Virus record (IMG/VR): IMGVR_UViG_3300025141_013870
Coordinates: 1 to 64,000 of that record
Origin: a virus
Reading direction: 5' to 3' (one strand)
DNA length: 64,000 nt
A program made the position numbers and the translations under genes. This document shows, in pieces, positions 26,914-64,000 of this stretch. The first letter of the stretch is position 1. Each line of letters starts with the position of its first letter. The notes under the pieces are model-generated. The model worked only from the letters and a program-made list of their open reading frames with translations, was not told where the DNA came from and made no database searches.

Positions 26914-26934
26914 TCCAAAGGTTAGTGGATAACT

Positions 26935-26965: not shown

Positions 26966-27110
26966 GCATATTTTTTATGATAATTTGTTATAGTAAAAAA
27001 AAATCTTAATTTAATATCAACCCTGCGATGCGTGATAACACATAATGCTATTATGTGAAACTTGTCTATTTTTTCACACAATAGAGAGTGAGAAAGTGAT
27101 GAATTAACGA

Positions 27111-27117
27111 ATATTTA
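27111..27117 (+). promoter_or_regulatory. Late-type promoter motif ATATTTA
   Basis: Before the neck genes, downstream of the MCP terminator. Confidence 0.55.
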
Positions 27118-27147
27118 TGATTAAGAGTGTGATCTTAGGAGATACAG

Positions 27148-28329: not shown

Positions 28330-28332
28330 TAA

Positions 28333-28995
28333 ATGTCAAGACTTTTTATAACGCCTAGGGAAATAAATTTTATAAACGATATAGCAAAAGAGCTTGTAAA
28401 AGATGTCGTAGGCCAAAAAATCTATTATTTCCCAATATCAGAAGTGAAATCAAAAGTGCATGATGTATATGAGGAAGCAATAGACAAGGTTTTTGAAAAC
28501 CCAATAGAGATAAATGCTCTAGTGAAATATGAGCCACAAGAGCTTAGAGCAAATATATTTGGAAGTGAAGAGTTCTATACAATCGAGGTATATGCACAGG
28601 AGAGAGATCTTTTAGACAAGGGCATCACAATATTAGAGGGTGATTTCTTTAGTTACGGGTCAGTATTTTTTGAGGTGATAACAGCTCCAGATTCAAATAC
28701 CATTTACGGCCAAGTTGAACACAAAGGGTTCACTACTATAACCGGTAAGCAGGCACGTCGTGGTCAATTCTCATCCATCACGTTCGGCCCAACTGATGAA
28801 AGCTACTCAGATCCTGATGCTGTTCAGGAAGTATTCGTCCAGCAAAGAGGATTCAGAGAGAATCAGGAAGGGGTAACAGGAGACGTAAGAGCACTACAGC
28901 AAAATGGTGTTCTCACTAAGCCTATAAGTGGGCCAGCAGAAGTTACCCCAAAAGATGCCGGCCCAGCAGGTTCAACATTCTATGGAGATGAGTAA
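28333..28995 (+). CDS. Neck protein (gp14-like head-tail adaptor)
   Basis: MSRLFITPRE..FI.DI..EL..DVVGQKIYY, DVYEEA, EGDFF.YG; position in the neck cluster. Confidence 0.6.
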   Translation: MSRLFITPREINFINDIAKELVKDVVGQKIYYFPISEVKSKVHDVYEEAIDKVFENPIEINALVKYEPQELRANIFGSEEFYTIEVYAQERDLLDKGITILEGDFFSYGSVFFEVITAPDSNTIYGQVEHKGFTTITGKQARRGQFSSITFGPTDESYSDPDAVQEVFVQQRGFRENQEGVTGDVRALQQNGVLTKPISGPAEVTPKDAGPAGSTFYGDE

Positions 28996-28997
28996 TA

Positions 28998-30209: not shown

Positions 30210-30230
30210 AGACTTTTGACAACTTAAGCG

Positions 30231-30237
30231 ATAGTTA
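30231..30237 (+). promoter_or_regulatory. Late-type promoter motif ATAGTTA
   Basis: Before sheath gene 1. Confidence 0.5.
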
Positions 30238-30270
30238 TAACAGTATAGAGTTATATCAGGAGATTTATTA

Positions 30271-33200
30271 ATGGCCGAACAGACATTCAGATCACCTGGG
30301 TTTTTTGAACGCGAGATAGATCTTTCTCAGAGAGAGAGTGAAATCGTTGGTGTACCAGCCGGCGTCGTAGGAACCGCAGAGATGGGCCCTGCATTTGTTC
30401 CAGTTACAGTTGGATCATTCGCAGATTTTGAGAGAAGATTTGGTTCACTGGATCCTCACAAGTTTGGTCCTTACGCAGTTAGGGAGTTTTTTAAGTATAA
30501 GACTGCTCTCACCTACGTTCGCGTCCTTGGCGCAGGGTCCAATGATACCACGACAGATATATCAAACACCAGAACAGCTGGCATCGTTAAGAATGCAGGA
30601 TTTAGAATAATAGGGACTTTACCAGATAGAGATCAGAGAGACGGTGCTGATCAGCGTCGACAGGGATGTGTTCAGTTTATCGCTGCTCGTCACCATGTAT
30701 CTTCAAGTCAGGAGGGTATTGGGTATCCTATATTCTCTGACAATGATAGTTATCCGGACATAGATGCTAACTCATCAGTGAACCTTGTCAGAGCGATGCT
30801 TTTCTCAACAACTGGGTCGAGGTTCGAGATACTGTCATACGCAACGGCGTCATGGGGAATATCTTCTTCAACACAGAGTGATGTTGCCAATGTAAATACT
30901 GATGGAGAGTTTAAGCTTGTTATATCTTCATCTTCTGGTGCAGCATTCGCTAATGACGAAGGAAATCCTGGAATAAGGATATATACAGCTTCACTAAACC
31001 CAGTGTCTGACAACTATATTGGAAAGCTTCTTAACACTGATCCCGAGAGGTTTGAAAAGGAAGAGCACGTGCTTTACGCTCACTTCCCAGTTGAAGATGA
31101 GGTAGCGTCTGTAATCTATAGTTCAGAGATTGGGTCTGTTGCACTAATGTCAGGATCAACAAATTCATCTTCCAAGTCAGGAATATCTGGCCTTGAATTC
31201 ATAGATGGATATGGAAGATTTGACACTAGATATGCTGCAACACGGACTACAAACTTCATATCACAGCCTTACGGTGATACTGAATTCGATCTATTTTATA
31301 TCGAATCAATCTCTGACGGGTCTGTTGCAAATGAGAAATATAAGGTATCAATTAAGAAACTTAGAAAGTCAAGTGATCCAAAGGATCCATACGGATCATT
31401 CACTGTTGAGATTAGAGATTTCGATGACACGGATACCAGCGCAAAGGTTCTAGAATCATATCCGCTTTGTACTCTAAACCCGCTAGACGACGATTACGTT
31501 GCAAAGAAGATTGGAGATTTCAAGGCATTCTATAACTTTGATGCAGAGAATGCTGATGAGAGAAAGGTGGTGGTATCAGGAAAATATCCAAACATATCAT
31601 CTCGTGTAAGAATTGTTATGAACAATGCTGTGGAATCTGGAGAGGTTCCCAAGGATGCACTTCCATTTGGATACAGAGGGTTTGGTGCCCTTAAGACAAA
31701 CAATACACTGACTGATTCAACTACCACAGCTATTCGTGGAGGAATTGGGTCAGCAGCAGCAGACTCTGTTAGAGTTGGATTCTGGAACTCAGGTGGGGTT
31801 GGAGCGACAGTCGGCTCAGCAAGTCTCAATACAGTAGCAAGTATATCTGGATCGATTCTGCCTCCTGTTCCGCTTAGGTTCAAGGTTACTCGAGGCGCTG
31901 TTTTGAAGTCATCTATACCGTACGTAGGAGCACCTGGCGAGGATGAGAGAGTTGACTCTAGATTCTATTGGGGATCTAAGTTTGACAGGCTTCCAAGAAC
32001 GGGATCTCTTTCAAATTCTATCTTCGATACAAACGTTTCAAGTGAGATTAATGACATCTTTAGAAACTATGCCAAGCTCATTGGAATACTAAAGCTTGAC
32101 AACCTTGTCACTGGATCTGGTGCGGATGCGTTTAATAATAACAAATTTACGCTAGCAAGAGTTGCTCTTTCAAATGGAATTGCAAACGATAGTAGTGGAA
32201 ATCCAAGCATATCAGCTACAGCAAACTCTGTAATAACAGGTTCTGCAAAGGAGCATATGCTTGAGACTTCGTATATTAGAAATGCTACGCCAGATGCAAG
32301 TAACTACACTGTATCTGATGGCGTCGCATCTAGAAGTAGAATGACAATGGCATCTCTATCTGCTTTAACGTCATCTGTCTACTTCAATAGATTTACAGAT
32401 TATAACAAGTTTACCAACTTCATGTATGGCGGATTTGACGGTCTGAATATTCTTGATACGAATATGGGGCGGATGGACGATAAGTCAACATCATCTGACA
32501 CTGGAGGATTAGCTGTCGGAGGAGACCTCGACATAGGCTTGAGTGATACAAATGAGTTTGGAGCGGGAAGCAGGAATAATATAGTCGCTTCTTATAGGGT
32601 TGGTGCGGAGATCCTAACAGATCCAATGGCATCAAGGGTGAACATACTATTGGTTCCAGGAATAAGAGATGGTGCGTTAACCGACTTTATTCAGTCTCGT
32701 CTATCTAGCTATAGCAAGGCATTCTTTGTCATGGATCTTCCTGCATATGATGCTGACCAGAAGAGATTATTTGCTGATAGCGCAAAGGCGCCAAATGTTG
32801 CTAAGACATCAGAACAATTTGACGGAAGGGCACTGAATAATAACTACTCAGCGACGTATTTCCCAGATGTTACAATAGAGGATCCCATTAATAATCAACC
32901 TGTTAAGGTTCCTGCATCCGTTGCAGTATTGGGAGCGCTAGCATATAATGATAATGTTGCATACCCCTGGTTCGCACCAGCGGGATTCAACAGGGCAGCT
33001 CTGGACTTTGTTTCAAATGTAAAGGTGAGGTTGAATCAATCAGATAGAGATACTCTCTATGATGCAAGGATTAATCCCATAGCAACCTTCCCATCAGCAG
33101 GGTATGTGATATTTGGGCAGAAGACCCTACAGCTTGCAAAGAGCGCGCTAGATAGGGTTAATGTTAGAAGGATGCTCCTCGAGGTTAAGAGGCTTGTTGT

Positions 33201-33465
33201 AGATGTTGCAAACAAGATCGTCTTCGAGCAAAACACACCTGAGACACGGGCTAGATTCGTCTCACAGGTGACACCTCTTCTTGCAACCATCCAGAGTCAG
33301 CAAGGAATAGATCAGTTCAAGGTAGTGATGGATGCAAGTAATAACTCACAGGATGATGTTGAGAACAACATATTAAACGGAAGAATCGTTCTTGTTCCCA
33401 CAAGAGCTGTTGAGTTCATAGCAATGGACTTCATCATAACCAACGCTGGCGTAAGCTTCGAGTAG
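30271..33465 (+). CDS. Tail sheath protein 1 (gp18-like)
   Basis: MAEQTFRSPGFFEREID, GTAEMGPAFVP, YVRVLG; C-terminal WFAPAGFNR, RDTLYDARINPI, FGQKTL..SALDRVNVRRML, PTRAVEFI. Confidence 0.93.
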   Translation: MAEQTFRSPGFFEREIDLSQRESEIVGVPAGVVGTAEMGPAFVPVTVGSFADFERRFGSLDPHKFGPYAVREFFKYKTALTYVRVLGAGSNDTTTDISNTRTAGIVKNAGFRIIGTLPDRDQRDGADQRRQGCVQFIAARHHVSSSQEGIGYPIFSDNDSYPDIDANSSVNLVRAMLFSTTGSRFEILSYATASWGISSSTQSDVANVNTDGEFKLVISSSSGAAFANDEGNPGIRIYTASLNPVSDNYIGKLLNTDPERFEKEEHVLYAHFPVEDEVASVIYSSEIGSVALMSGSTNSSSKSGISGLEFIDGYGRFDTRYAATRTTNFISQPYGDTEFDLFYIESISDGSVANEKYKVSIKKLRKSSDPKDPYGSFTVEIRDFDDTDTSAKVLESYPLCTLNPLDDDYVAKKIGDFKAFYNFDAENADERKVVVSGKYPNISSRVRIVMNNAVESGEVPKDALPFGYRGFGALKTNNTLTDSTTTAIRGGIGSAAADSVRVGFWNSGGVGATVGSASLNTVASISGSILPPVPLRFKVTRGAVLKSSIPYVGAPGEDERVDSRFYWGSKFDRLPRTGSLSNSIFDTNVSSEINDIFRNYAKLIGILKLDNLVTGSGADAFNNNKFTLARVALSNGIANDSSGNPSISATANSVITGSAKEHMLETSYIRNATPDASNYTVSDGVASRSRMTMASLSALTSSVYFNRFTDYNKFTNFMYGGFDGLNILDTNMGRMDDKSTSSDTGGLAVGGDLDIGLSDTNEFGAGSRNNIVASYRVGAEILTDPMASRVNILLVPGIRDGALTDFIQSRLSSYSKAFFVMDLPAYDADQKRLFADSAKAPNVAKTSEQFDGRALNNNYSATYFPDVTIEDPINNQPVKVPASVAVLGALAYNDNVAYPWFAPAGFNRAALDFVSNVKVRLNQSDRDTLYDARINPIATFPSAGYVIFGQKTLQLAKSALDRVNVRRMLLEVKRLVVDVANKIVFEQNTPETRARFVSQVTPLLATIQSQQGIDQFKVVMDASNNSQDDVENNILNGRIVLVPTRAVEFIAMDFIITNAGVSFE

Positions 33466-33504
33466 GGAATAGATATTCATGACTATGCATTTTGGAGATA
33501 ATAA

Positions 33505-36500
33505 ATGGCTGAGGTAACTTATAGTAGCGCTGGGGTCTACACCACAGAGATAGATCAAACCGGCCCAACAACATCTGTTCCTTCCGGTGTGCCCGGCGGA
33601 ATCATAGGAACTGCAGACGAAGGTCCTGCATATGTACCGATAACAATTGGAAGCTATAGTGATTTTGCTCGTATTTTTGGAGCGACAGATGGAGAGAAGT
33701 TTGGACCGCTTGCAGTTCATCAGTTTCTAAAGAATGCTCAGTCTCTAACGTATACTAGGGTCCTTGGGATAGGAGATGGCAAGAAGAGAGATACCGGAAC
33801 TGGAAAGGTTACAAACGCTGGATTTGTGGTAGGCGCAAAGACAGTTCAGGATAATGGAAATGTTGGTAGGAATCCCTACGCAATAGATGATGGTGTTCCA
33901 GGAAAGACATACTTCCTCGGCTGTTTCATGTCAGCATCAGCGGGATCAACACTATTCACTGACGCTGGAATTCAGAAGTCGAATGAAAATCAGGCACGAC
34001 CAATCGTTAGAGGCGTGCTAATGGCTCCATCCGGAGTTCTTCTCAGGCTGTCTGGAGCAGGCGCCGTAGGAAACTCACAGGGTGCTCCTTCTGCAATACT
34101 TTCTGCAGTTAATCCAACAGCTGCAGGTGACGAAGGCACTGGCATGGTAGGAGGAATAACTGGGTCTGTAAACATAGCAACGAAACGATTTGTCATGCTC
34201 TTAAACGGTCACCTAAAGACAGGCGACGCTCCCAATGTTATAACAGCGTCATTCGACCTAGAAGACGCCAGCTATTTTGCAAACGTCTTAAATACAGATC
34301 CCGCAAAGATCGAAGAGAAGGGACACCTCCTATATTCTCACTATGACATCCACCCAGCCCTTGCTGCTGTGACAGGAACTGGCGTGTTTGTGGCAACTCA
34401 CGCTTTTCCAAGCGCAAGCGCAGGCGGCCCTGCCTTAGAGCCTCTAGCATTCCTAACAACGGGATCAGCTGGTAGAAATACAGGCACATCCACTGCTCCA
34501 GATTATGAGTCATTTGAGGAGAGATTTACTCACGCAAAATCTCCATTTGTGATATCACAGACGTTCGGTGGAACAAAGTATAGCATAGTGAGAATTCACG
34601 CTCTTGGAGATGGAAGATATACAAATACAAACATAAAGATCTCTATAGAGAACATAAAGCCATCCACATCTGACGCATACAAGTATGGAACATTTGATCT
34701 TCTCGTTAGGAAGTTTGAAGACACAGATCTTGAAAAGAAGGTCTTAGAAGCGTATAGAGGAGCAAATCTTGATCCAAGTAGTGACAAGTTTATAGCAAGA
34801 ATTATCGGAGATATGTATTCATACTTTGACTTCGATCAAGCATCCTCGTCACAAAAGCTTGTGCTTGCAGGAGATCACCCTGTTCGATCAAACTACATCA
34901 GAGTTGAGCAAAGTACTCATCTCAAAAACGGACAGGTTCCAAAGGATGCACTTCCATTTGGATTTAGAGGACCTGATCACCTAGTCACGTCAGGAAGCGC
35001 GCCGCTAGAGGGTGGATTCTATTCAGGTGCTCTCCTCCAGGCTGGCTTTAACGACCGGTCCCTGCTTAACATGGCAGTTGAGCCTCCAGTCCCCCTAAGA
35101 AAGAATATTGTGATGGGATCTTTGCCAAACCTGATCCAGGATGCCACGTGGTATTGGGGAGTCAAGTTTATGCAGACTGTGGCTATTGCAGACGGCGTTA
35201 ATAACACTATAACCCTGAAGAATCTAACAGTTGATAATTTTACAAAGTTCTTCCCGTCTTACGGAGGGTCTAATAGAGACGTTTCAGTTGGAAATAACCC
35301 AGGAGTAGCAGACTCTGGTGGGACAGTATTAGATTGTGATAGGTTTAATAACAATATATTCACACTTGAGAGACTGACTATTAGAACAGGATCTGATGGA
35401 AAAGCAGATCCTAATGAGTGGGTTAGTGCATCATACACGAGAACTGGGAATATAACTGCAAATGAGACAAACAAGACTAGGGCACTAAAGTCATCAGATC
35501 TGTCTGTGCAGGGAAATAGAACCTTCTGCAAGTACTCATTCTTCCTCCAGAGAGGATTTAACGGTAGCAATATTTTCGATAAGGATAAGGAGAAGATGCT
35601 TAATGCAGCAGTTCGTCGAGAGATGGATGACTCAACTGCTCAAGGCGGAACATCAGGACCAACAGTATCAGCCTATAGAAAGGCACTGGATATAATGGGA
35701 ACCAAGTCTGATGTTGACATCAAGCTGCTAGCGATTCCCGGAATAAGACACTCATCTGTGTCAGATTACGCTATTGACACTGTTGAAAGTAGATTTGACG
35801 CCATGTATGTGATGGACATCGAGGAGAGAGACGAGATGAACTCTGTCATAACATCCTCAGTGGGATCATTTGCAAATGTCTCAAACACTGTCACGGAGTT
35901 TAAGGGAAGAGCGCTAGATACATCTTTTGCAGCAGCATATTTCCCTGACGTCATTATGACAGATCCCACGACGCACACAAACGTTCAGTGTCCGCCATCA
36001 GTTGCTGTTATGGGTGCAATGTCGCTGAATGACGCTGTGGGATATCCGTGGTTCGCACCGGCAGGATTCACACGAGGAGCGCTGGGAGACGTTCTCTTTG
36101 CAGACGTTAGTCTAAACAAGACCAATATGGATGATCTTTACGATGCAGATATCAACCCTCTCACAGCATTCCCGAATACAGGTGTGATGGTATTTGGACA
36201 GAAGACACTTCTAGCAGCTGCATCAGCTCTTGACAGGGTTAACGTTAGAAGGCTGTTAATAGACATAAGGAGAAAGGTTAGAAATATCGCTAATCTCATG
36301 CTATTTGAACCTAACAGGCAGGAGACGCTTGACAAGTTCAGTGCTCTAGTTCAGCCGGTCCTTCAAAGCATACAGGAAAAGAGCGGCGTGGATAGATTCA
36401 AGGTTGTTATAGATGCAACAACTACCACACAAACAGACATTGAGAATAACACTCTTCGTGGAAAGATCTTCTTACAACCCACGAGAACTGCAGAGTTTGT

Positions 36501-36552
36501 TGCACTGGACTTCGTCCTAACAAATGCTGGAGATGCATTTGAGAATGCATAA
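33505..36552 (+). CDS. Tail sheath protein 2 (gp18-like)
   Basis: SSAGVYTTEID, GTADEGPAYVP, WFAPAGFTRG, LYDADINP, FGQKTL..SALDRVNVRRLL, PTRTAEFV. Confidence 0.93.
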   Translation: MAEVTYSSAGVYTTEIDQTGPTTSVPSGVPGGIIGTADEGPAYVPITIGSYSDFARIFGATDGEKFGPLAVHQFLKNAQSLTYTRVLGIGDGKKRDTGTGKVTNAGFVVGAKTVQDNGNVGRNPYAIDDGVPGKTYFLGCFMSASAGSTLFTDAGIQKSNENQARPIVRGVLMAPSGVLLRLSGAGAVGNSQGAPSAILSAVNPTAAGDEGTGMVGGITGSVNIATKRFVMLLNGHLKTGDAPNVITASFDLEDASYFANVLNTDPAKIEEKGHLLYSHYDIHPALAAVTGTGVFVATHAFPSASAGGPALEPLAFLTTGSAGRNTGTSTAPDYESFEERFTHAKSPFVISQTFGGTKYSIVRIHALGDGRYTNTNIKISIENIKPSTSDAYKYGTFDLLVRKFEDTDLEKKVLEAYRGANLDPSSDKFIARIIGDMYSYFDFDQASSSQKLVLAGDHPVRSNYIRVEQSTHLKNGQVPKDALPFGFRGPDHLVTSGSAPLEGGFYSGALLQAGFNDRSLLNMAVEPPVPLRKNIVMGSLPNLIQDATWYWGVKFMQTVAIADGVNNTITLKNLTVDNFTKFFPSYGGSNRDVSVGNNPGVADSGGTVLDCDRFNNNIFTLERLTIRTGSDGKADPNEWVSASYTRTGNITANETNKTRALKSSDLSVQGNRTFCKYSFFLQRGFNGSNIFDKDKEKMLNAAVRREMDDSTAQGGTSGPTVSAYRKALDIMGTKSDVDIKLLAIPGIRHSSVSDYAIDTVESRFDAMYVMDIEERDEMNSVITSSVGSFANVSNTVTEFKGRALDTSFAAAYFPDVIMTDPTTHTNVQCPPSVAVMGAMSLNDAVGYPWFAPAGFTRGALGDVLFADVSLNKTNMDDLYDADINPLTAFPNTGVMVFGQKTLLAAASALDRVNVRRLLIDIRRKVRNIANLMLFEPNRQETLDKFSALVQPVLQSIQEKSGVDRFKVVIDATTTTQTDIENNTLRGKIFLQPTRTAEFVALDFVLTNAGDAFENA

Positions 36553-52373: not shown

Positions 52374-52402
52374 ATCAAGGGACGATTCGTCCCTTGATTT
52401 TT
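52374..52402 (+). terminator. Rho-independent terminator after SSB
   Basis: ATCAAGGGACG-ATT-CGTCCCTTGAT followed by TTTT. Confidence 0.8.
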
Positions 52403-54596: not shown

Positions 54597-55985
54597 ATGA
54601 GCGAGACAACATCACATTTCAGTAGATATGGAAAGTCCTTTCAGGAAAAGATTTTCCAAGCATTTATCACAGATCAAAACTGGGCAGCACAAATGACAGA
54701 GGTGATGGACTCTTCATTTTTTGAACAGAAATATTTACAATATTTATCTAAAAAATATTTTGATTATTACTGTAAATACAAGTCATTTCCAACTCTTCCG
54801 CTATTGATAACAATAATAAGAGATGACCTTAGAGAGGGAAGTGACATTATCTTAAGAGATCAAATTATTGAGTTTCTTCATAGAATTAAGGTAAATCCTG
54901 ATGTGGGAGATCTTGAATTTGTTAAAGAGAAGTCACTTGATTTTTGTAAAAAACAAGCTCTTAAAAATGCCCTTGAGGTATCTGTTGATTTGATAGCAAC
55001 AGAGAAATATGAGTCAGTCATAGAAGTTATGAAAGATGCCATATGCAAAGGGATGCCTTCATCTATTGGTCATAACTTTTTTGAGGATTATGAATCACGA
55101 TTTACGAGATTTAGTCGTGTCACTTGCCCAACTGGGATACCAGAAATAGATAAAAAAGATATATTAAATGGCGGTCTCGGAAGAGGCGAGATAGGTGTCA
55201 TAACTGCTCCCACAGGTGTCGGGAAATCTCATTTTTTGGTTCATGTTGGATCTGAGGCACTAAGAGTTGGTAAAAATGTCATACATTATACGTTTGAACT
55301 ATCAGAGAGAGCTGCAGGATTAAGATATGATAGTAATCTTTGCGACATACCCAGCAATGAAGTGATAGATAGAAAGGATGAGGTCTTAAAAAAGTATGAT
55401 GATTCAGATTTTGGAAGGCTTATTATCAAGGAGTACCCTACTGGATCTGCTACAGTTACAACTATTAGAAATCACATTGAAAAACTTTTACTCAAGTCTT
55501 TTGTTCCCAGCTTGATAATTATTGATTATGCAGATATCATGCGATCATCAAGAAAATATGACTCTCTTCGTCACGAGCTAAAGTTAATTTATGAGGAATT
55601 GAGGAATCTCTCTATGGATATGAATATACCAATCTGGACAGCAAGTCAGGCGAATAGAGATGCAGCAAATGCGTCAGTTGTCGGATTAGAAAATATGGCA
55701 GAGGCGTACGGGAAAGCAATGGTGGCAGATGTAGTTTTATCGTTATCTAGAAAACCTATGGAAAAAGCATCTGGCTGCGGAAGGTTGTTTGTTGCCAAGA
55801 ATAGAGCAGGAAGAGATGGAATACTTTTTCCTATTCACCTAGATACAGCAAGGTCAAAAATCTATGTTGTAGAAAATGGTGATGAGATGTCATTAAGCGA
55901 TGTTGTCAAAACTGACGCTAATGCCATGAAAAATCTTTTAAAGCAGAAGTGGAAAGAAGTTAACGGTGACAGCCGCACGCAGTAA
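54597..55985 (+). CDS. Replicative DnaB-like helicase (gp41-like)
   Basis: APTGVGKS (Walker A), HYTFEL, IIKEYPTG, IIIDYADIM, WTASQANR, VAKNRAG. Confidence 0.92.
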   Translation: MSETTSHFSRYGKSFQEKIFQAFITDQNWAAQMTEVMDSSFFEQKYLQYLSKKYFDYYCKYKSFPTLPLLITIIRDDLREGSDIILRDQIIEFLHRIKVNPDVGDLEFVKEKSLDFCKKQALKNALEVSVDLIATEKYESVIEVMKDAICKGMPSSIGHNFFEDYESRFTRFSRVTCPTGIPEIDKKDILNGGLGRGEIGVITAPTGVGKSHFLVHVGSEALRVGKNVIHYTFELSERAAGLRYDSNLCDIPSNEVIDRKDEVLKKYDDSDFGRLIIKEYPTGSATVTTIRNHIEKLLLKSFVPSLIIIDYADIMRSSRKYDSLRHELKLIYEELRNLSMDMNIPIWTASQANRDAANASVVGLENMAEAYGKAMVADVVLSLSRKPMEKASGCGRLFVAKNRAGRDGILFPIHLDTARSKIYVVENGDEMSLSDVVKTDANAMKNLLKQKWKEVNGDSRTQ

Positions 55986-56006: not shown

Positions 56007-58466
56007 ATGAAAGTGTCTTTTAATAAAGCTCTGTCAGAAAGTATTGAATATTTTGGTGGTGATGAACTTGCTGCTAATATTTTTGTAACAAAATACGCAC
56101 TTTGTGATGAAGCTGGAAATTTTTATGAAAAGACGCCTGATGATATGCATAAAAGACTTGCATCTGAGTTTCATAGAATTGAAAAAAATTATCCCAATCC
56201 GATGACAGAGGATGAAATATATCATCTTTTTAAAGATTTTAAATATGTTATTCCACAAGGAAGCCCGATGGCTGGAATTGGAAATAACTTTAGAATTCAG
56301 TCTTTGTCAAATTGTTTCGTCATAGAGTCTCCACATGACTCATATGGTGGAATTCTTAAGTCAGATCAAGAGCTAGTACAAATAGCAAAAAGAAGAGGAG
56401 GAGTAGGCTTTGACATTTCGACAATACGACCAAAAGGGTGCACGACATCAAATGCTGCCAGAACTACTGACGGCATCGAAGTATTTATGGATAGATTTTC
56501 AAATTCGTGCAGAGAAGTGGCTCAGGGTGGACGCCGCGGAGCCCTTATGCTTACTATCTCTATTCATCATCCTCAAGTTAGAGATTTTATAAGAATTAAA
56601 AGAGATCTTTCTCGAGTGACAGGTGCCAACATATCAGTAAGACTAACAGATGAATTTATGAATGCTGTAGAAAATAAATCTGAAGTTGAGCTAAGATTTC
56701 CAGTTGATAGTGAATTTCCTGAAATGTCAGAGTCTGTAGACGCATCCGAGCTTTGGGATGAGATAATAGAGTCAGCACATGAATCTGCTGAACCAGGAAT
56801 TCTTTTTTGGGACACGGCGAAAAGATTAACACCTTCCGACATCTATGAAAAAGAAGGGTTTGGGTCAACATCTACAAATCCTTGCGGCGAGATAATTTTA
56901 AGCCCTGGAGATTCGTGTCGACTGATGCTAATAAATCTACTTTCATTTGTTGTCAATCCATTTAAAGATGATGCATTTTTTAATTTTAACAAGCTATCAG
57001 ATATCACCACAAAGGCGCAGAGGCTCATGGATGATATGGTCGATCTTGAAATAGAACAGGTTGATAAGATACTTGAAAAAATATTTGCTGATCCCGAACC
57101 TGAAAAAGTAAAAAAGATAGAAAAAGATCTATGGAAAAACATCAAAGAGCAGGCAATTAGAGGCAGAAGAACAGGATTGGGAATAACAGCTGTAGGTGAT
57201 ACACTCGCAGCGCTTAATGTAAGATATGGTTCAGATGAGTCAATTGATATAATTGAAAACATATACAAGACTCTTTGTGTCAATGCATATAGATCATCAT
57301 GTGTGATGGCAAAAGAGAGAGGGGCATTTCCAGTTCATGATTTTGCAAAAGAGACATATCATCCATTTTTAAGAAGAGTGTGGGAAGAAGATCCAGAACT
57401 CTTACAAATGAATGAAAAGTGGGGAAGAAGAAATATATCTCTTACAACTACCGCACCTGCAGGATCTGTGTCTACATTAACGCAAACAACATCCGGAATA
57501 GAGCCTGCCTATCTTCTTAAGTACACTAGAAGGAAGAAGATAAACCAATCTGATGAATCTGCATCTGTTGATTTTGTCGATGCTGTGGGAGATTCATGGC
57601 AAGAATATGATGTTTATCATCACGGATTCAAAAAGTGGATGGACATAACAGGAAAAACATCAGTTAAAAAATCACCATATTGGAAATCTACATCAAATGA
57701 TATTGACTGGGTCTCTAAAATAAAAGTTCAAGCTGCAGCACAGAAATGGGTATGCCATGCAATATCAAATACAACAAATGTTCCAGCAGACATAGACGTT
57801 GACACTGTTAAAAAAATCTATATTGATGGATGGAAGCTAGGTTGCAAAGGCGTAACAGTATATAGAGAAGGATGTAGATCGGGCGTTCTTGTTCCTACGG
57901 TTAGAGAAGATAAAAGTTTTGAATCTCATGATGCTCCATCTAGACCCGATGAGCTAGATTGTTCTATTCACCACGCGACAATTAAAGACGAGGCATGGAC
58001 AATTCTTGTAGGATTACTAGATGGAAGGCCATATGAGGTAATGGGAGGTCTCCAGAAGTATATTGAAATTCCGCGCAAGTACAAAGATGGAACAATTATC
58101 AAGCATCACTATAAGACAAAAAATTCTAGATATGATCTTCGTATTGGAAAAAACGGAGATGAAATTTTGATAAAGGATATTGTTTCAGTTTTTGATAATC
58201 CTAATCATGCTGGGTATACTAGGACGATATCCCTTGCACTTCGTCATGGAGCAAACATACATTATGTTGTTGAACAGCTGCAAAAAGACAGAGAGATGGA
58301 CATGTTCTCATTCTCAAAGGTTATTGCTAGAGTTCTTAAGAATTACATCAAGGATGGAACAGTACCAGGAAAGACGACATGTCAAAATTGTGGCGCTGAA
58401 GATACGCTGAGATATCAAGAAGGGTGTGTCATGTGCACAGCATGCGGATCATCCAAGTGTGGATAA
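56007..58466 (+). CDS. nrdJ: Class II (adenosylcobalamin-dependent) ribonucleotide reductase
   Basis: PQGSPMAGIG, SLSNCFV, TNPCGE, RRTGLG, TTAPAGSVS, TTSGIEP, C-terminal CQNC..EGCVMCTACGSSKC; no beta-subunit gene follows. Confidence 0.88.
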   Translation: MKVSFNKALSESIEYFGGDELAANIFVTKYALCDEAGNFYEKTPDDMHKRLASEFHRIEKNYPNPMTEDEIYHLFKDFKYVIPQGSPMAGIGNNFRIQSLSNCFVIESPHDSYGGILKSDQELVQIAKRRGGVGFDISTIRPKGCTTSNAARTTDGIEVFMDRFSNSCREVAQGGRRGALMLTISIHHPQVRDFIRIKRDLSRVTGANISVRLTDEFMNAVENKSEVELRFPVDSEFPEMSESVDASELWDEIIESAHESAEPGILFWDTAKRLTPSDIYEKEGFGSTSTNPCGEIILSPGDSCRLMLINLLSFVVNPFKDDAFFNFNKLSDITTKAQRLMDDMVDLEIEQVDKILEKIFADPEPEKVKKIEKDLWKNIKEQAIRGRRTGLGITAVGDTLAALNVRYGSDESIDIIENIYKTLCVNAYRSSCVMAKERGAFPVHDFAKETYHPFLRRVWEEDPELLQMNEKWGRRNISLTTTAPAGSVSTLTQTTSGIEPAYLLKYTRRKKINQSDESASVDFVDAVGDSWQEYDVYHHGFKKWMDITGKTSVKKSPYWKSTSNDIDWVSKIKVQAAAQKWVCHAISNTTNVPADIDVDTVKKIYIDGWKLGCKGVTVYREGCRSGVLVPTVREDKSFESHDAPSRPDELDCSIHHATIKDEAWTILVGLLDGRPYEVMGGLQKYIEIPRKYKDGTIIKHHYKTKNSRYDLRIGKNGDEILIKDIVSVFDNPNHAGYTRTISLALRHGANIHYVVEQLQKDREMDMFSFSKVIARVLKNYIKDGTVPGKTTCQNCGAEDTLRYQEGCVMCTACGSSKCG

Positions 58467-58487: not shown

Positions 58488-58505
58488 GTGCTAGGGGGAA
58501 AATTT

Positions 58506-58892
58506 ATGTCGTATTCAGATAAGGTATTAGATCATTTTAGCAACCCCCGTAATGTCGGAGCGATGGATAAAGATGATATCAATGTAGGCACAGGTATGGT
58601 CGGTGCTCCAGCGTGCGGCGATGTGATGAAGCTTCAGCTCAAGATCAATGACAGCGGCATCATCGAGGATGCCAAGTTCAAGACATTCGGCTGCGGTTCT
58701 GCTGTTGCATCAAGCTCTTTAATAACAACATGGGTAAAAGGATTGAATATAGCAGAGGCTGAGAAGATAAAAAATTCATCAATTGCAGAGGAGCTTTGCT
58801 TGCCGCCTGTGAAGATTCACTGTTCAGTTCTTGCTGAAGATGCTATAAAGGCTGCGATTAAAGATTACCGGATCAAGAATGACAAGAAGTGA
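58506..58892 (+). CDS. iscU: Fe-S cluster scaffold IscU
   Basis: YSDKVLDHFSNPRNVG, GAPACGDVMKLQ, FKTFGCGSAVASSS, LPPVKIHCSVLAE (three conserved Cys). Start moved to ATG 58506. Confidence 0.95.
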   Translation: MSYSDKVLDHFSNPRNVGAMDKDDINVGTGMVGAPACGDVMKLQLKINDSGIIEDAKFKTFGCGSAVASSSLITTWVKGLNIAEAEKIKNSSIAEELCLPPVKIHCSVLAEDAIKAAIKDYRIKNDKK

Positions 58893-59145
58893 TATACAAA
58901 AGCTCATTGATGAAGAAATCAACTCTGCCTTATCAATGCACGGAGGCCATGTTTCAATTCATGAATTTGACGAAGAGAGCAAATCTTTGAAATTAAAAAT
59001 GGGCGGTGGGTGTCATGGATGCTCATCATCAAGAATGACTATGAAAGTGGGAGTTGAAAATCTTCTCAGGGAGGTGTTTCCTGATATTGGAGAAATTGAG
59101 GATGTCACTGATCATTCAACAGGTGAAAATCCATACTATGACTAA
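58879..59145 (+). CDS. Nfu/NifU-C-type Fe-S carrier
   Basis: INSALSMHGGHV, LKMGGGCHGCSSSRMTMKVGVE (CxxC). Confidence 0.88.
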   Translation: MTRSDIQKLIDEEINSALSMHGGHVSIHEFDEESKSLKLKMGGGCHGCSSSRMTMKVGVENLLREVFPDIGEIEDVTDHSTGENPYYD

Positions 59146-59154
59146 GGAACAAAT

Positions 59155-59481
59155 ATGGCAATAACAGTTACAGAGAAAGCAAGAATCAAAATAAAATCTC
59201 TGCTTAATCAGCGTCAAACTCCTGATCATTTTCTAAGGATAGGGTTAAGAGGAGGTGGCTGCTCTGGGTTTATGTATAAATATGAATTCATCGACAAGAC
59301 AGATGAGAAAGATAAGATATTTGAATTTGATGACATTAAAATTTGCATCGATATAAAATCCTATTTATTTCTTAATGGAATAGAGATAGATTATCAAGAA
59401 GACTTACTAAAGTCAGGCCTTGTGTTTAATGCTCCGGGAGCATCGCGAACGTGTGGCTGTGGTGAGTCAGTAACATTTTGA
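59155..59481 (+). CDS. iscA: A-type Fe-S carrier IscA/HesB
   Basis: ITVTEKA, LRIGLRGGGCSGFMY, YLNGIEIDY-like segment, CGCGES. Confidence 0.92.
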   Translation: MAITVTEKARIKIKSLLNQRQTPDHFLRIGLRGGGCSGFMYKYEFIDKTDEKDKIFEFDDIKICIDIKSYLFLNGIEIDYQEDLLKSGLVFNAPGASRTCGCGESVTF

Positions 59482-59488
59482 GGTATTG

Positions 59489-60091
59489 ATGAAGTGGATT
59501 ACAAAAGTATCTCCATTAATTAAGGAAATTGAATTAAGAAAAAATCCAGTAGTCATACGTGTTAATAAGTTTGATGAAAAATCATCAAAAGAATTTGATA
59601 ATCAAGTTGCTTTAGCGCATAATACTGGGCAAAAGGTTATTCCTATTGTCATTGACTCTTACGGCGGACAGGTTTATAGCTTGATGTCAATGATAAGTGC
59701 CATTAATCATTGTGAGATTCCAGTTGCTACAATAGTAGAAGGGAAGGCAATGTCATGTGGAGCTATACTTTTTTCATGCGGTGAGCAAGGCTTAAGGTTT
59801 ATGGATCCTGATGCGACAGTCATGATTCATGATGTTTCATCTATGGAGTATGGAAAAGTTGAAGAGATAAAAGCGTCAGCTGAAGAAACAGAGAGGCTTA
59901 ATCAAAAAGTCTATACAATTATGGCTAGAAACTGTGGAAAAAAAGACGATTATTTTTTAAAGCTCGTTCATAAAAAAGGACACGCAGATTGGTTTTTAGA
60001 TTCAACAGCTTGCAAAAAACACGGACTGGCTAATCAGATTCGTGTACCAAAGTTTAATATCAGCATTTCTGTTGATATAGATTTCGAATAA
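59489..60091 (+). CDS. clpP: ClpP-like serine protease
   Basis: IDSYGGQVY, EGKAMSCGA (catalytic Ser), VMIHD (His), DWFLD. Confidence 0.82.
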   Translation: MKWITKVSPLIKEIELRKNPVVIRVNKFDEKSSKEFDNQVALAHNTGQKVIPIVIDSYGGQVYSLMSMISAINHCEIPVATIVEGKAMSCGAILFSCGEQGLRFMDPDATVMIHDVSSMEYGKVEEIKASAEETERLNQKVYTIMARNCGKKDDYFLKLVHKKGHADWFLDSTACKKHGLANQIRVPKFNISISVDIDFE

Positions 60092-60101: not shown

Positions 60102-61649
60102 ATGTTATTTCAAGATTTGAATATAGAAAAACAAGATACAGATATTTTAAGCGACGACGCTGTAAAATTTTTATCTGATCTAACAAGAATGTTTAGACAA
60201 AGTCTGATATCACTTCTTCAAAGAAGAAACCTGCGTCAGGCATTTTATGATGAGAATCACTTTCCTAATTTTTTATCTGAGACAGTAGCTGTTAGACAGG
60301 GTGACTGGTCTGTTTGTGACATTCCAAATAGCATAAAAGATCGTCGAGTTGAGATAACGGGCCCTCCCGATAGAAAGATGATAATCAACGCTTTAAACTC
60401 TGGAGCAAAAGTGTATATGGCGGACTTTGAAGATTCAATGTCACCAACATGGGAAAATGTCGTCGATGGTCATGTAAACTTAATAGATGCAACAAGAAAG
60501 ACCATAACATACGAACACCCAAAAAAAGGAATGTATGAACTTAATGACGACGTAGCAGTGCTCTTTGTAAGGCCAAGGGGTCTTCACTTAAATGAATCTA
60601 ATTTTATAGTTGACAATAAGCCGATTCCAGCATCATTATTTGATTTTGGATTATTTTTATTTTACAATGGGAAGCTTCTAGCTGATAAAGATGAAGGACC
60701 ATATTTTTACATACCAAAATTAGAACACTATCTTGAAGCTAGATGGTGGAATGAGGTATTCACATGGTCACAAGAGGCTTTGGGCATACCGCATGGATCG
60801 ATAAAGGCAACAGTTCTAATAGAGACTCTACCGGCAGCATTTCAGATGGATGAGATACTATATGAGCTAAGAGACCATTCAGCTGGCTTAAACTGCGGAA
60901 GGTGGGATTATATCTTTAGCTATATAAAGACATTGAGAAATCATGATAACAGAATTCTACCAGATAGAAATACTGTCACGATGAATACACATTTTATGAA
61001 CTCATATGCAAAATTGTTGGTAAAGACATGCCACAAGCGCGGTGCACATGCTATGGGTGGAATGGCTGCACAAATTCCCATAAGAGGAGATCAGGAAAAG
61101 AATATTAAGGCATTGAACAAAGTCCGCGGAGATAAGATAAGAGAGGTTAATCTTGGACACGATGGAACGTGGGTCGCTCATCCAGGACTTGTAAAAATTG
61201 CAAAAGATGTATTTGATGAATATATGCCAGATGAAAACAATATTGAAAAGAAGATAGATTTTGTATGCTCAAGAGAAGACCTTCTTGATACACCCCAGGG
61301 TGAGATAACAGAGGAATGTTTAAGAAGCAATATCAATATCGGTATTCACTATATAGCAGCGTGGCTATCTGGCCAGGGATGCGTTCCTCTTTATAATCTA
61401 ATGGAGGATGCAGCAACTGCAGAGATATCTCGGGCTCAAACTTGGCAGTGGCTAAAACATGACAAGATTAGTATTGATAGATTTGAAGAAATTTTTATTG
61501 AAGAAATTAATAAAATAAGACATGAAGTTGGTGATTTAACATTTAAAAATTCTAATTATGAAAGCGCTTCACAGCTATTCGAACGCTTATCTGTATCTGA
61601 TGAGCTTGATAATTTTTTAACCTTAAAGGCCTATGAGCTAATATCCTAA
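60102..61649 (+). CDS. aceB: Malate synthase A
   Basis: [83 protein letters not shown]. Confidence 0.96.
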
Positions 61650-61660
61650 GGATCGTCTAT

Positions 61661-62899
61661 ATGACAACAGTCAAAAGAGATTTACCCCCCATTAAGAGAA
61701 CCTGGAACCAGGAAGATGTCAACAACCTCAGGGGTAATGTTAAAATTGAATATTCACTAGCCAGGTCAGGAGCTAACAAGCTATGGAATCTACTTCTAGA
61801 AGATGATCCCGTTACTGCGCTAGGAGCGTTAACTGGAAACCAGGCAATTCAACAAGTCAGAGGCGGCTTAAAGTCAATATATCTTAGCGGATGGCAGGTA
61901 GCAGCTGATGCAAATCTTTCTGGTAACATGTATCCAGATCAAAGCCTATATCCGGCAAATAGCGTGCCATCAGTCGTGAAGAGAATAAATCAAGCTCTGC
62001 AAAGAACAGATCAGGTTGAGAGCGTTGAAGGGAATATAACTAGAGACTGGATGGTTCCCATAGTTGCAGATGCTGAAGCTGGATTCGGAGGGCCTCTAAA
62101 CGCGCATGAGCTTATGAAAGGAATGATCGAAGCCGGCGCAGCAGGTGTACACTTTGAGGATCAATTATCTTCAGAAAAGAAATGTGGGCACCTGGGCGGA
62201 AAGGTTCTAGTTCCAACATCACAGTTTGTAACAACGTTAAAGGCTGCTCGTCTAGCTGCTGATGTTATGGACGTACCGACCGTTTTAATTGCAAGAACAG
62301 ATGCAAATAGCGCAAGATTAATGACATCTGACATAGATCCATATGATCACCAGTTTATGACAGGAGAAAGAACGCAGGAAGGATTTTATCGAATCACAGG
62401 CGGAATCAATCAGGCAATATCCAGAGGGCTGGCATACGCACCATACGCAGACTTGCTTTGGTGTGAGACATCTACTCCTGATCTTCACGAAGCTAAACTG
62501 TTTGCAGATGCAATTCATGAGAAATTTCCAGGAAAGATTCTAGCATACAATTGTTCACCATCGTTTAATTGGAAGAAAAATCTTGATGATGAGACAATAG
62601 AGATATTTCAAAGAGAGCTAAACGGTATGGGATATAAGTTTCAATTTGTAACTCTTGCTGGATTCCACTCACTTAACTACTCAATGTTTGATTTGGCTGA
62701 TAGATATCGAGATGGCGGAATGACAGCGTACGTTCAGCTTCAGGAGAGAGAATTTTCAGCAGAGGAAAGAGGATACACGGCGACAAAGCACCAGAGAGAG
62801 GTAGGGACTGGATATTTTGATGCAGTTAAGAATGCTCTGTCTGGGGGAGACTCTTCAACTCTTGCTATGACTGAATCTACAGAGTCTGATCAGTTTTAA
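61661..62899 (+). CDS. aceA: Isocitrate lyase (short bacterial type)
   Basis: [32 protein letters not shown], signature [53 protein letters not shown]. Confidence 0.97.
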
Positions 62900-62901: not shown

Positions 62902-63834
62902 ATGGATAAGGACTTTTACAACAAGTCGAGCTCAGACAGCCTTGGGTGGAAACCTGAGTGGTTCGGGTGTAAATATTTCGATGAGGATCTTGTTAAAGCT
63001 GTAAGAAAGTGGCAGCGGGAGAACGGATTAACAGGCGACGGTCTTGTTGGTCCGATGACATATAGAAGAATATGGACAGAGAGAGAATCTCAAATTGATG
63101 AATTTAGACCCTATATCTATAGCCCCAAAGACAGTGCTTTCATAGTTCATAATGGAAAATTTATTCCTATAGACTGGGGAAAGGTGATTCTATGGTCTGA
63201 TACGGGTGGTCTCAAAGCTGCACCAGGAGCCTACTATAGCTATGGGGGATCAGAAGATAGAAATCCAACAATGTTTGTAAACCACTGGGATGTCTGTCTA
63301 TCAGCTGAGAGCTGTGCGAAGGTTCTTGCTAGAAGGGGCGTCTCAGTTCATTTCTGCATAGACAATGATGGAACGATCTATCAACTTCTTGATACACAGC
63401 ATGCAGCGTGGCATGCTGGAAATTCAAAGGTAAACAGAGCTAGTGTAGGTGTGGAAATCTCAAATGCATATTACACAAAATATCAGGACTGGTATGAGAG
63501 ACACGGGTTTGGAGAGCGACCACTATGGACAGACGCAGAGGTCCACGGAAAGACGCAGAAACCATTTTTAGGATTCTATGACGTTCAAATAGAGGCAGCT
63601 AAAGCTCTATGGAGAGCTATTCATGACGGGCTAGGCATTCCGCTAGAGTGCCCAGTAGATTCTTCTGGAGATATGGTTACAACAACAGTGAGCGAAGTGG
63701 CTTCTGGTAAGTTTAAAGGATTTATTCATCACTTTCATGTAACAAGAGGAAAGATCGACTGCGCAGGATTCGATCTAAAGAATCCTCTTGATGAAGTTAG
63801 AACAAGTAGAAAATATTGTATTGATAAGGAATAG
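62902..63834 (+). CDS. Peptidoglycan-binding N-acetylmuramoyl-L-alanine amidase (endolysin-like)
   Basis: PGBD AVRKWQRENGLTGDGLVGPMT; Amidase_2-type VNHWD, SVHFCIDNDGTIYQ, AWHAG, VGVEI, IHHFHV..GKIDC. Confidence 0.85.
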   Translation: MDKDFYNKSSSDSLGWKPEWFGCKYFDEDLVKAVRKWQRENGLTGDGLVGPMTYRRIWTERESQIDEFRPYIYSPKDSAFIVHNGKFIPIDWGKVILWSDTGGLKAAPGAYYSYGGSEDRNPTMFVNHWDVCLSAESCAKVLARRGVSVHFCIDNDGTIYQLLDTQHAAWHAGNSKVNRASVGVEISNAYYTKYQDWYERHGFGERPLWTDAEVHGKTQKPFLGFYDVQIEAAKALWRAIHDGLGIPLECPVDSSGDMVTTTVSEVASGKFKGFIHHFHVTRGKIDCAGFDLKNPLDEVRTSRKYCIDKE

Positions 63835-64000
63835 ATGAAAATGAGACATATGAAGATAGAATATGTGTGGATCGATGGTTGCAACCCATGGGGATTAAGA
63901 TCAAAGGTGAAGGTTTTAAAATTGTCAGATGCCAACTTTAATGACACAATAGAAGGGAGCATTGATAACATTCCTGAGTGGGGGTTTGATGGATCGTCAA
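63835..64000 (+). CDS. glnII: Glutamine synthetase type II (GlnII), N-terminal fragment running off the window
   Basis: My translation from ATG 63835: MKMRHMKIEYVWIDGCNPWGLRSKVKVL...IPEWGFDGSS, matching the GSII motifs EY(I/V)W(I/L)DG, LRSK and W.FDGSS. Absent from the ORF track. Confidence 0.85.
   Translation, partial: MKMRHMKIEYVWIDGCNPWGLRSKVKVLKLSDANFNDTIEGSIDNIPEWGFDGSS

What the first reader, a model, noticed from the sequence alone, without database searches (positions are those of the whole stretch)
60102..62899. Complete glyoxylate shunt (aceB-aceA) encoded in a T4-like myovirus
Seen: full-length malate synthase A and isocitrate lyase, 11 nt apart, with intact catalytic motifs (ICL KKCGH; MS RPRG Arg and LMED Asp). 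They share strand and contig with terminase, portal, capsid and tail genes and are followed directly by a phage-type amidase. Established: ICL plus MS bypass the two decarboxylating TCA steps and allow net C4 synthesis from acetyl-CoA; aceB-aceA is the order in the E. coli aceBAK operon. To my knowledge this pair is reported from some eukaryotic giant viruses but is not a standard bacteriophage auxiliary gene set (needs a literature/database check). Inference: the phage forces carbon-conserving anaplerosis to supply oxaloacetate/aspartate and gluconeogenic precursors for nucleotide synthesis in a host living on acetate or fatty acids. No aceK is visible in the window.
Basis: partly seen in the sequence, partly recalled or inferred. 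Interest (0 to 1): 0.92.

Follow-up and report, generated by a model that had tools for sequence, protein, structure and literature searches.

The report
Glyoxylate-shunt gene pair in large phage
An uncultured large T4-like phage carries intact genes for both glyoxylate-shunt enzymes, conserved in dozens of related phage contigs, but the same pair was already published for marine and huge phages, so this is a solid example and not a discovery.

Summary
ORF 60102-61649 is a full malate synthase A and ORF 61661-62899 a full isocitrate lyase. Both score above NCBIfam equivalog cut-offs and keep their catalytic motifs. They lie 11 nt apart on the + strand of a 118-kb IMG/VR virus record that also encodes terminase, portal, capsid, two tail sheaths, UvsX and gp32. 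It is not a chimera. Their composition and codon usage match the phage. The block DnaB-NrdJ-(Fe-S genes)-ClpP-aceB-aceA recurs in about 25 independent viral contigs, and aceB-aceA adjacency in 40. The viral malate synthases form one clade. dN/dS is about 0.1 or lower. The novelty claim fails. An aceBA operon in a complete 179-kb T4-like marine viral genome was published in 2017, aceAB in viromes in 2013, and 22 huge phages with both genes in 2025. This scan has also noted the pair before on other DNA. The proposed role, carbon-conserving anaplerosis during infection, is plausible and fits the phage GlnII and AsnB genes, but it is untested. Nothing shows a host living on acetate or fatty acids. 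No aceK, integrase or other TCA gene is in the contig. Read mapping could not be run. Verdict: real, a new member of a known kind, of modest interest.

The parts
60102..61649 (+). aceB, malate synthase A (515 aa)
   Evidence: Pfam MS_N, MS_TIM-barrel and MS_C. TIGR01344 equivalog 730 bits against cut-off 594.5. Best solved-structure matches are the malate synthase entries 3cux (E 2.7e-185) and 3cuz (E 3.8e-170), with RPRG and [11 protein letters not shown] conserved. These motifs are invariant in 12 viral homologues.
61661..62899 (+). aceA, isocitrate lyase (412 aa)
   Evidence: Pfam ICL. NF011645 equivalog 732 bits against 562; the prpB models score far below their cut-offs. Best solved-structure matches are the isocitrate lyase entries 6lrp (E 3.7e-191) and 7cmx (E 4.7e-190). 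[21 protein letters not shown] and NCSPSFNW are invariant in 13 viral ICLs.
62902..63834 (+). cell-wall amidase (endolysin-type), 2 nt after aceA
   Evidence: Pfam Amidase_2 and PG_binding_1. PHROG endolysin and amidase families. It flanks aceBA in many related contigs, either upstream or downstream.
63835..64000 (+). start of a GlnII-type glutamine synthetase gene (runs to 64884 of the record)
   Evidence: Pfam Gln-synt_N and Gln-synt_C. NCBIfam GlnII 435 bits, below the cut-off of 500.
59486..60091 (+). ClpP-family protease, 10 nt before aceB
   Evidence: Pfam CLP_protease, E 2.7e-27. PHROG and NCBIfam cannot separate an ATP-dependent ClpP from a head-maturation protease, and all NCBIfam scores are below cut-off.
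58488..59481 (+). Fe-S cluster assembly genes: IscU (58488-58892), NifU-domain protein (58879-59145) and IscA-type protein (59155-59481)
   Evidence: Pfam NifU_N, NifU and Fe-S_biosyn. IscU TIGR01999 221 bits against cut-off 192. In the nearest relatives L170 and L171 this block is deleted to a single 92-aa IscU-IscA fusion remnant.
56007..58466 (+). NrdJ, B12-dependent (class II) ribonucleotide reductase
   Evidence: Pfam RNR barrel domain. TIGR02504 NrdJ_Z 467 bits against cut-off 400.
54597..55985 (+). DnaB/gp41-like replicative helicase
   Evidence: Pfam DnaB_C. PHROG 19, E 1.6e-72.
52374..52398 (+). only strong terminator-like hairpin on the + strand upstream of the block
   Evidence: 11-bp stem followed by a T run. 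No other + strand terminator-like site lies between it and 64000, so UvsX through aceBA may be one transcription unit. This is inference.
14951..36552 (+). phage structural module: TerL, portal, major head protein, adaptor and two tail sheaths
   Evidence: PHROG hits.

Best explanation
aceB and aceA are long-resident, functional auxiliary metabolic genes of a clade of large, distantly T4-like phages whose relatives turn up in marine data. They sit in the replication and nucleotide-metabolism module, packed with gaps of 0-21 nt (one 14-nt overlap) behind DnaB, NrdJ, the Fe-S assembly genes and ClpP. They are probably transcribed with that module during lytic infection. The phage supplies only the two shunt-specific enzymes. 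The host must supply citrate synthase, aconitase, malate dehydrogenase and acetyl-CoA. Isocitrate lyase splits isocitrate into succinate and glyoxylate, and malate synthase condenses glyoxylate with acetyl-CoA to malate. Isocitrate therefore bypasses the two CO2-releasing, NADH-forming steps. The infected cell gains C4 acids, which can feed oxaloacetate, aspartate, asparagine and pyrimidines, fitting the phage GlnII and AsnB genes. It also makes less NADH per turn. Shown here: identity, integrity, phage residence, conservation, purifying selection and mostly vertical descent. Inferred: expression timing, enzyme activity and the physiological gain.
For: Identity and active-site motifs are confirmed. 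For phage residence, 120 of 124 ORFs lie on one strand, with hallmark genes on both sides. GC, GC3 and codon usage of aceB and aceA lie within 1.03 sd of the phage's genes, with RSCU correlations of 0.92 and 0.90 against a genome mean of 0.87. Of 52 IMG/VR contigs with malate synthase, 40 have aceB directly before aceA, 6 have aceA upstream of aceB, and 25 carry NrdJ, ClpP and aceB together in the fetched locus. All 15 viral malate synthases form one clade with support 99. Across contigs, malate synthase identity to the window tracks DnaB identity (rho 0.82, n 20) and NrdJ identity (rho 0.62, n 24). Synonymous sites are saturated while dN is 0.09-0.31, giving dN/dS of about 0.05-0.13, like DnaB and NrdJ. 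Other nitrogen and C4 users in the same record are GlnII at 63835-64884 and AsnB at 110521-112119. The same reading has been published for phages (PMC4053976, PMC5332604, bioRxiv 10.1101/2025.02.27.640493).
Against: There are no expression or enzyme data. The host is unknown, so it cannot be said whether the host lacks or already has a shunt. No AceK or other means of holding back host isocitrate dehydrogenase was found, so the flux split is open. More than 60 viral contigs carry isocitrate lyase with no malate synthase detected in the fetched flanks, so the lyase may be the primary asset. Promoter-like and terminator-like sites are no more frequent than in shuffled sequence, so the operon structure is inferred from spacing only.
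Confidence: 0.72

Rival explanations
1. Iron-sparing or redox-sparing module. The shunt is carried not mainly to save carbon but to keep the cycle turning with less NADH. That lowers the load on iron-rich respiratory complex I in iron-poor sea water. It would work together with the iron-free B12 reductase NrdJ, the Fe-S scaffold genes and the phage superoxide dismutase.
For: aceBA lies directly behind NrdJ, IscU, NifU and IscA, and an Fe/Mn SOD lies at 88218-88928 of the record. Fe-S genes accompany aceBA in many related contigs. In the ICL-only contig L041, IscU and IscA sit directly before ICL. Marine bacteria raise glyoxylate-shunt expression under iron limitation (PMC11069385 and the works it cites).
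Against: In the nearest relatives, L170 and L171, the IscU-NifU-IscA block is deleted to a 92-aa remnant while aceBA is kept. Several aceBA contigs show no Fe-S gene in the fetched locus. L041 carries an iron-dependent class I reductase. Only about 4 of some 63 ICL-only contigs have Fe-S genes nearby. Gene clustering behind nrd genes may just mark a cargo slot.
Confidence: 0.15
2. Lysogenic or pseudolysogenic host-fitness genes. As proposed for the Tara genome, the pair is expressed from a resident phage to help the host grow on C2 compounds.
For: The authors of PMC5332604 proposed this for TARA_ERS478052_N000008.
Against: No integrase is in the 118 kb. The genes lie inside the replication and nucleotide module on the common strand, with gaps of 2 to 11 nt and no promoter or terminator of their own above chance. 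The backbone is of the T4 type, which is lytic in known members (own knowledge). Only 37% of the genome is in hand, so a lysogeny module elsewhere is not excluded.
Confidence: 0.07
3. Isocitrate lyase is the real asset, supplying succinate or glyoxylate for another use such as glycine. Malate synthase in this clade serves mainly to clear toxic glyoxylate.
For: Isocitrate lyase alone is far commoner in viral contigs than the pair: more than 60 against about 17, and 98 against 22 in the 2025 preprint. ICL is more conserved than MS within the clade, with dN 0.095 against 0.157 versus L011.
Against: In this clade MS is kept intact, adjacent and under purifying selection in every contig that is not cut at its end. 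Clearing glyoxylate by malate synthase is itself the shunt.
Confidence: 0.05
4. Assembly chimera or host DNA joined to a phage contig.
For: None was found.
Against: The same gene order occurs in about 25 independently assembled viral contigs, at 53-77% MS identity. Codon usage is phage-like. The best bacterial ICL in the species-level genome set is only 73% identical, and the best named cellular MS only 58%, against 85% and 82% in viral or metagenomic relatives. Phage genes lie on both sides.
Confidence: 0.01

Closest known systems
aceBA operon of the complete marine viral genome TARA_ERS478052_N000008 (Nishimura et al. 2017, PMC5332604)
   Same: Malate synthase A sits directly before isocitrate lyase (502 and 411 aa, 15-nt gap) in a large marine virus with T4-like structural genes. 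Its GC content is 37.5%, against about 38.5% here.
   Different: In the Tara genome the pair lies among small unknown ORFs, with no NrdJ, Fe-S or ClpP genes beside it. That genome is 179 kb. The record here is estimated at about 320 kb (118 kb at 37% completeness). The authors argued for a lysogenic role, and nothing here supports that.
Isocitrate lyase and malate synthase genes of huge phages (bioRxiv 10.1101/2025.02.27.640493)
   Same: 98 ICL and 22 MS genes were found in 98 phages of 200 kb or more. The two genes are adjacent in 20 of them, and the MS carriers come from marine, soil and plant-related samples. Relatives of the window's MS lie on contigs of 254-309 kb.
   Different: The preprint gives counts and an AMG reading only. 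The conserved DnaB-NrdJ-ClpP-aceBA block, the single viral MS clade and the selection estimates were worked out here. I could not check whether this very record is in their set.
E. coli/Salmonella aceBAK operon
   Same: The order aceB then aceA is shared. MS is 50% and ICL 64% identical to the Salmonella proteins.
   Different: There is no aceK and no IclR-type regulator was seen. The genes are embedded in a phage replication module.
Glyoxylate-shunt genes of giant viruses of eukaryotes (Mimiviridae; reviewed in PMC9270025)
   Same: Virus-encoded ICL and MS, reported as expressed in marine metatranscriptomes.
   Different: A different virus realm and different hosts. One giant-virus MAG contig with MS (L214, 48-52% identity) turned up in the IMG/VR scan, but no ICL was detected in the fetched locus.
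Phage C48C1 (OQ984149.1, Kyanoviridae, 156 kb, complete)
   Same: A T4-like phage genome in GenBank with an intact ICL (57% identity) a few kb behind a DnaB helicase and a NifU-like gene.
   Different: It has no malate synthase. The ICL is annotated only as a hypothetical protein and sits on a long branch apart from the window's clade.

Membership tests
Malate synthase A (AceB, EC 2.3.3.9; TIGR01344) | Score above the curated equivalog cut-off, over the full length | tested here: met
   730.2 bits against cut-off 594.5, residues 15-514 on model positions 1-510 of 511. The malate synthase G model scores only 24.8 bits.
Malate synthase A (AceB, EC 2.3.3.9; TIGR01344) | Three-domain build: N-terminal domain, TIM barrel and C-terminal plug | tested here: met
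   Pfam MS_N, MS_TIM-barrel and MS_C are all above cut-off.
Malate synthase A (AceB, EC 2.3.3.9; TIGR01344) | Catalytic Arg (RPRG), catalytic Asp ([11 protein letters not shown]) and the acidic metal ligands (LIET, GRWDY) | tested here: met
   The motifs align with E. coli MSA 3cuz. R159, E241, D269 and D436 are invariant in 12 viral sequences. The roles of these residues come from my knowledge of the MSA structures.
Malate synthase A (AceB, EC 2.3.3.9; TIGR01344) | Enzyme activity | not testable with these tools
   Needs expression and an assay.
Isocitrate lyase (AceA, EC 4.1.3.1; NF011645 / TIGR01346) | Score above the curated equivalog cut-offs | tested here: met
   NF011645 732.2 bits against 562, and TIGR01346 564.7 bits against 275.9.
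Isocitrate lyase (AceA, EC 4.1.3.1; NF011645 / TIGR01346) | KKCGH catalytic loop and the other family motifs | tested here: met
   K173-K174-C175-G176-H177 are invariant in 13 viral ICLs, as are [16 protein letters not shown] and NCSPSFNW.
Isocitrate lyase (AceA, EC 4.1.3.1; NF011645 / TIGR01346) | Is not a methylisocitrate lyase (PrpB) or a PEP mutase | tested here: met
   prpB models score 103 and 88 bits against cut-offs of 354 and 353.
Enterobacterial aceBAK operon | aceB directly before aceA | tested here: met
   11-nt gap on the same strand.
Enterobacterial aceBAK operon | aceK (isocitrate dehydrogenase kinase/phosphatase) downstream | tested here: not met
   No PF06315 match at E up to 1 in the 118-kb record. 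An amidase follows aceA.
Phage auxiliary metabolic gene | A cell-type metabolic gene inside a viral genome, with viral genes on both sides, conserved in related viruses | tested here: met
T4-like phages (shared core genes) | gp17, gp20, gp23, sheath, gp32, UvsX, gp41, gp61 and gp46 homologues | tested here: met
   PHROG and Pfam hits. TerL is only 33% identical to T4-like cyanophages.
T4-like phages (shared core genes) | Family-B DNA polymerase (gp43) | tested here: inconclusive
   No PF00136 match in the 118 kb. DnaE-type and PolA-type genes are present. Only about 37% of the genome is held.

The most novel reading that the evidence does not exclude
In this clade aceBA is one part of a conserved module made of NrdJ (an iron-free reductase), an Fe-S scaffold, ClpP, the shunt and GlnII. 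The module lets a giant phage replicate in iron-starved or energy-starved deep-ocean hosts by running the TCA cycle in a low-NADH, carbon-conserving mode. If so, phage glyoxylate-shunt genes would mark iron-limited infection rather than growth on C2 substrates.
Probability: 0.15. Interest if true: 0.55.

Novelty: new member of a known kind. Interest (0 to 1): 0.3.

Why it matters
Phage-encoded glyoxylate-shunt enzymes would let a virus decide whether host carbon is respired to CO2 or kept as biomass precursors. That choice matters for carbon budgets in the sea. The idea and the gene pair are already in the literature. What is still missing is any test of activity, timing or benefit. This record and its roughly 25 syntenic relatives are a good, well-conserved set from which to pick genes for such a test, but they do not change the picture.

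Tried and rejected
The T4 late-promoter motif TATAAATA gives 4 matches against 4.07 expected by chance. Sigma-70-like promoters and terminators occur at chance level. No tRNAs are in the record, so there is no host clue from them. PHROGs v4 has no family for either enzyme, which says only that the library lacks them. INPHARED hits to Salmonella and Escherichia 'phages' are bacterial DNA or short unannotated fragments, not phage examples. I considered a single origin for all viral ICLs and rejected it: the AU test gives p 0.006. I also considered a tight Fe-S/shunt partnership and downgraded it because the nearest relatives have deleted the Fe-S genes. The supplements of the 2025 preprint that are held as text do not contain the gene lists.

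Full report
**What is there.** The window is the first 64 kb of a linear IMG/VR virus record of 118,248 b, which CheckV rates 37% complete. That implies a genome near 320 kb. ORF 60102-61649 (+, 515 aa) carries the three malate synthase domains (Pfam E 9e-110). It passes the NCBIfam equivalog for malate synthase A, at 730 bits against a cut-off of 594.5. ORF 61661-62899 (+, 412 aa) is an isocitrate lyase (Pfam E 1e-100). It scores 732 bits on NF011645 against a cut-off of 562, while the methylisocitrate lyase models stay far below their cut-offs.

Against solved structures, the lyase aligns without gaps over residues 11-412, and the KKCGH loop is intact. The synthase aligns over its whole length with E. 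coli malate synthase A. RPRG, LIET, GRWDY and [11 protein letters not shown] are all conserved. The two genes are 11 nt apart. ClpP ends 10 nt before aceB, and an Amidase_2/PG_binding_1 gene starts 2 nt after aceA.

**The setting is a phage.** 120 of 124 ORFs lie on the + strand. The window holds these phage genes:
- large terminase, portal and major head protein
- a head-tail adaptor and two tail-sheath paralogues
- a gp46/SbcC-like nuclease, a primase and a gp32-like protein
- UvsX, an exonuclease and a DnaB/gp41-like helicase

The rest of the record adds a DnaE-type polymerase, DnaJ, DnaK, GroEL, a sigma-70-type factor, ThyX, thymidine kinase, superoxide dismutase and asparagine synthase B. 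A GlnII-type glutamine synthetase follows directly after the amidase.

TerL is 44% identical to Flavobacterium phage immuto, 42% to Microcystis phage Mel-JY01 and 33% to T4-like cyanophages. No family-B polymerase is in the 118 kb. 'T4-like myovirus' is therefore right only in the broad sense of a distant, very large relative.

**It is not a chimera.**
- Composition: GC, GC3 and codon usage of aceB and aceA fall within 1.03 sd of the phage's own genes. Their RSCU correlations are 0.92 and 0.90, against a genome mean of 0.87.
- Recurrence: a profile scan of IMG/VR found 52 viral contigs with malate synthase. In 40 of them aceB lies directly before aceA, and in 6 aceA lies upstream of aceB. In 25, NrdJ, ClpP and aceB occur together in the fetched locus, in the window's order in the gene maps.
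- Divergence: these contigs come from many samples and differ by 23-47% in malate synthase sequence.
- Nearest relative: L011/L170 has DnaB 95%, NrdJ 89%, MS 76% and ICL 85% identity.

**History of the genes.** In an IQ-TREE tree, all 15 viral malate synthases form one clade against 51 bacterial ones (SH-aLRT 99). The clade has a weak (75) sister link to Acidobacteriota, Eisenbacteria and Myxococcota sequences. Across contigs, malate synthase identity to the window tracks DnaB identity (rho 0.82, n 20) and NrdJ identity (rho 0.62, n 24). These points are not phylogenetically independent. Together this fits one old acquisition and mostly vertical descent.

Isocitrate lyase tells a different story. 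The window sits in a clade of nine viral sequences that all have aceB beside them (support 100). A second aceB-linked clade and an ICL-only clade lie nearby. A 42-member ICL-only viral clade groups with betaproteobacterial sequences instead. An AU test rejects a single clade of all viral ICLs (p 0.006). The best bacterial ICL in a species-level genome set is 73% identical. The best named cellular malate synthase is 58% identical, from a 'Deltaproteobacteria bacterium' MAG. No donor can be named.

**Selection.** Between the window and five relatives, synonymous sites are at or near saturation (pS 0.69-0.80). dN is 0.16-0.31 for aceB and 0.09-0.17 for aceA. Where dS can be computed, dN/dS is 0.05-0.13, the same range as DnaB and NrdJ. 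All catalytic motifs are invariant in 12 viral synthases and 13 viral lyases. The genes are kept for their enzymatic function.

**How it most likely works.** The phage encodes only the two shunt-specific steps. Isocitrate dehydrogenase, aconitase, citrate synthase, acyl/acetyl-CoA synthetase, AceK and integrase are all absent from the 118 kb. The genes are packed with gaps of 0-21 nt (one 14-nt overlap) behind DnaB, NrdJ, IscU, NifU, IscA and ClpP. The only strong + strand terminator-like hairpin nearby is at 52374-52398, before UvsX.

I infer co-transcription with the replication and nucleotide module. During infection this would add lyase and synthase activity to the host cycle. Isocitrate would bypass the two decarboxylations, yielding C4 acids with less NADH. 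The phage glutamine synthetase and asparagine synthase fit a demand for aspartate-family and amide nitrogen compounds. Expression, activity and benefit are all inferred.

An iron-sparing variant of this idea is attractive, because NrdJ needs no iron, Fe-S scaffold genes are adjacent, and marine bacteria induce the shunt when iron-limited (PMC11069385). It is weakened because the two nearest relatives have deleted IscU-NifU-IscA down to a 92-aa fusion remnant and still keep aceBA.

**Comparison with what is known.**
- Hurwitz et al. 2013 found aceA and aceB in Pacific viromes (PMC4053976).
- Nishimura et al. 2017 described an aceBA operon in the complete 179-kb viral genome TARA_ERS478052_N000008, which has T4-like structural genes. 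They called it the first such operon in a complete viral genome (PMC5332604). Their gene table shows aceB (502 aa) and aceA (411 aa) 15 nt apart, among small unknown ORFs. That context differs from the one here.
- A 2025 preprint counts 98 lyase and 22 synthase genes in huge phages, adjacent in 20 genomes.
- Giant viruses of eukaryotes also carry and express both genes (PMC9270025).
- This scan has noted phage ICL and MS repeatedly on other DNA: 62 notes in at least 47 genomes hold the search words. One earlier follow-up, on a 296-kb marine phage, reached the same verdict.

In the papers found I saw no biochemical or infection-level test of any phage aceA or aceB.

**Verdict.** The feature is real and intact, under selection, and typical of a sizeable clade of large phages. 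It is a new member of a known kind, of modest interest. Its main use is as a good source of genes for the first functional test.

Noticed in passing
L170:5103-5381 (IMGVR_UViG_3300002519_002540), also L171; corresponds to window 58488-59481: In the two nearest relatives, the IscU-NifU-IscA block is replaced by one 92-aa ORF. It joins the first ~46 residues of IscU in frame to the last ~46 of IscA. This is a clean deletion remnant, seen in two samples, while ClpP and aceBA stay intact.
   Followed up: partly
L041:3793-12203 (IMGVR_UViG_3300031963_000759): An ICL-only, T4-like contig has the order ThyX, class I RNR large subunit, glycosyltransferase, UDP-galactopyranose mutase, RNR small subunit, IscU, IscA, ICL, SNase, SegE-like homing endonuclease. 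ICL again sits behind nrd and Fe-S genes, although its ICL belongs to a different clade.
   Followed up: partly
window 54597-63834 compared with L011: Divergence from the nearest relative is uneven. DnaB has pS 0.44 (95% aa identity), but ClpP, aceB, aceA and the amidase are saturated (pS 0.69-0.76; 76-85% aa). This suggests recombination within the clade.
   Followed up: no
window 30271-33465 and 33505-36552: Two adjacent tail-sheath paralogues of about 1,000 aa each, roughly twice the length of the PHROG sheath profile (496 positions).
   Followed up: no
record 63835-64884 and 110521-112119 (beyond the window end): The phage encodes a GlnII-type glutamine synthetase (435 bits, just under the NCBIfam cut-off of 500) directly after the amidase, and an asparagine synthase B above its cut-off. 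Together with aceBA they point to aspartate and amide-nitrogen supply.
   Followed up: partly
record 77971-82633, 104312-105913 and 116068-117963: A chaperone set (DnaJ, GroEL, DnaK) and a DnaE-type Pol III alpha subunit are encoded by the phage. No family-B polymerase is in the 118 kb.
   Followed up: no
OQ984149.1 44175-45416 (Phage C48C1, L003:11995-13236): A complete Kyanoviridae genome in GenBank has an intact isocitrate lyase (57% identical to the window's) annotated only as a hypothetical protein. No malate synthase was found in that record.
   Followed up: partly
window 59486-60091: The ClpP-family gene is conserved at 70-85% identity next to aceB. It cannot be assigned either to the ATP-dependent ClpP type or to the head-maturation type, because all NCBIfam scores are below cut-off. 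The ORF after the portal (18635-19489) has no PHROG match, so the prohead protease is not identified.
   Followed up: no
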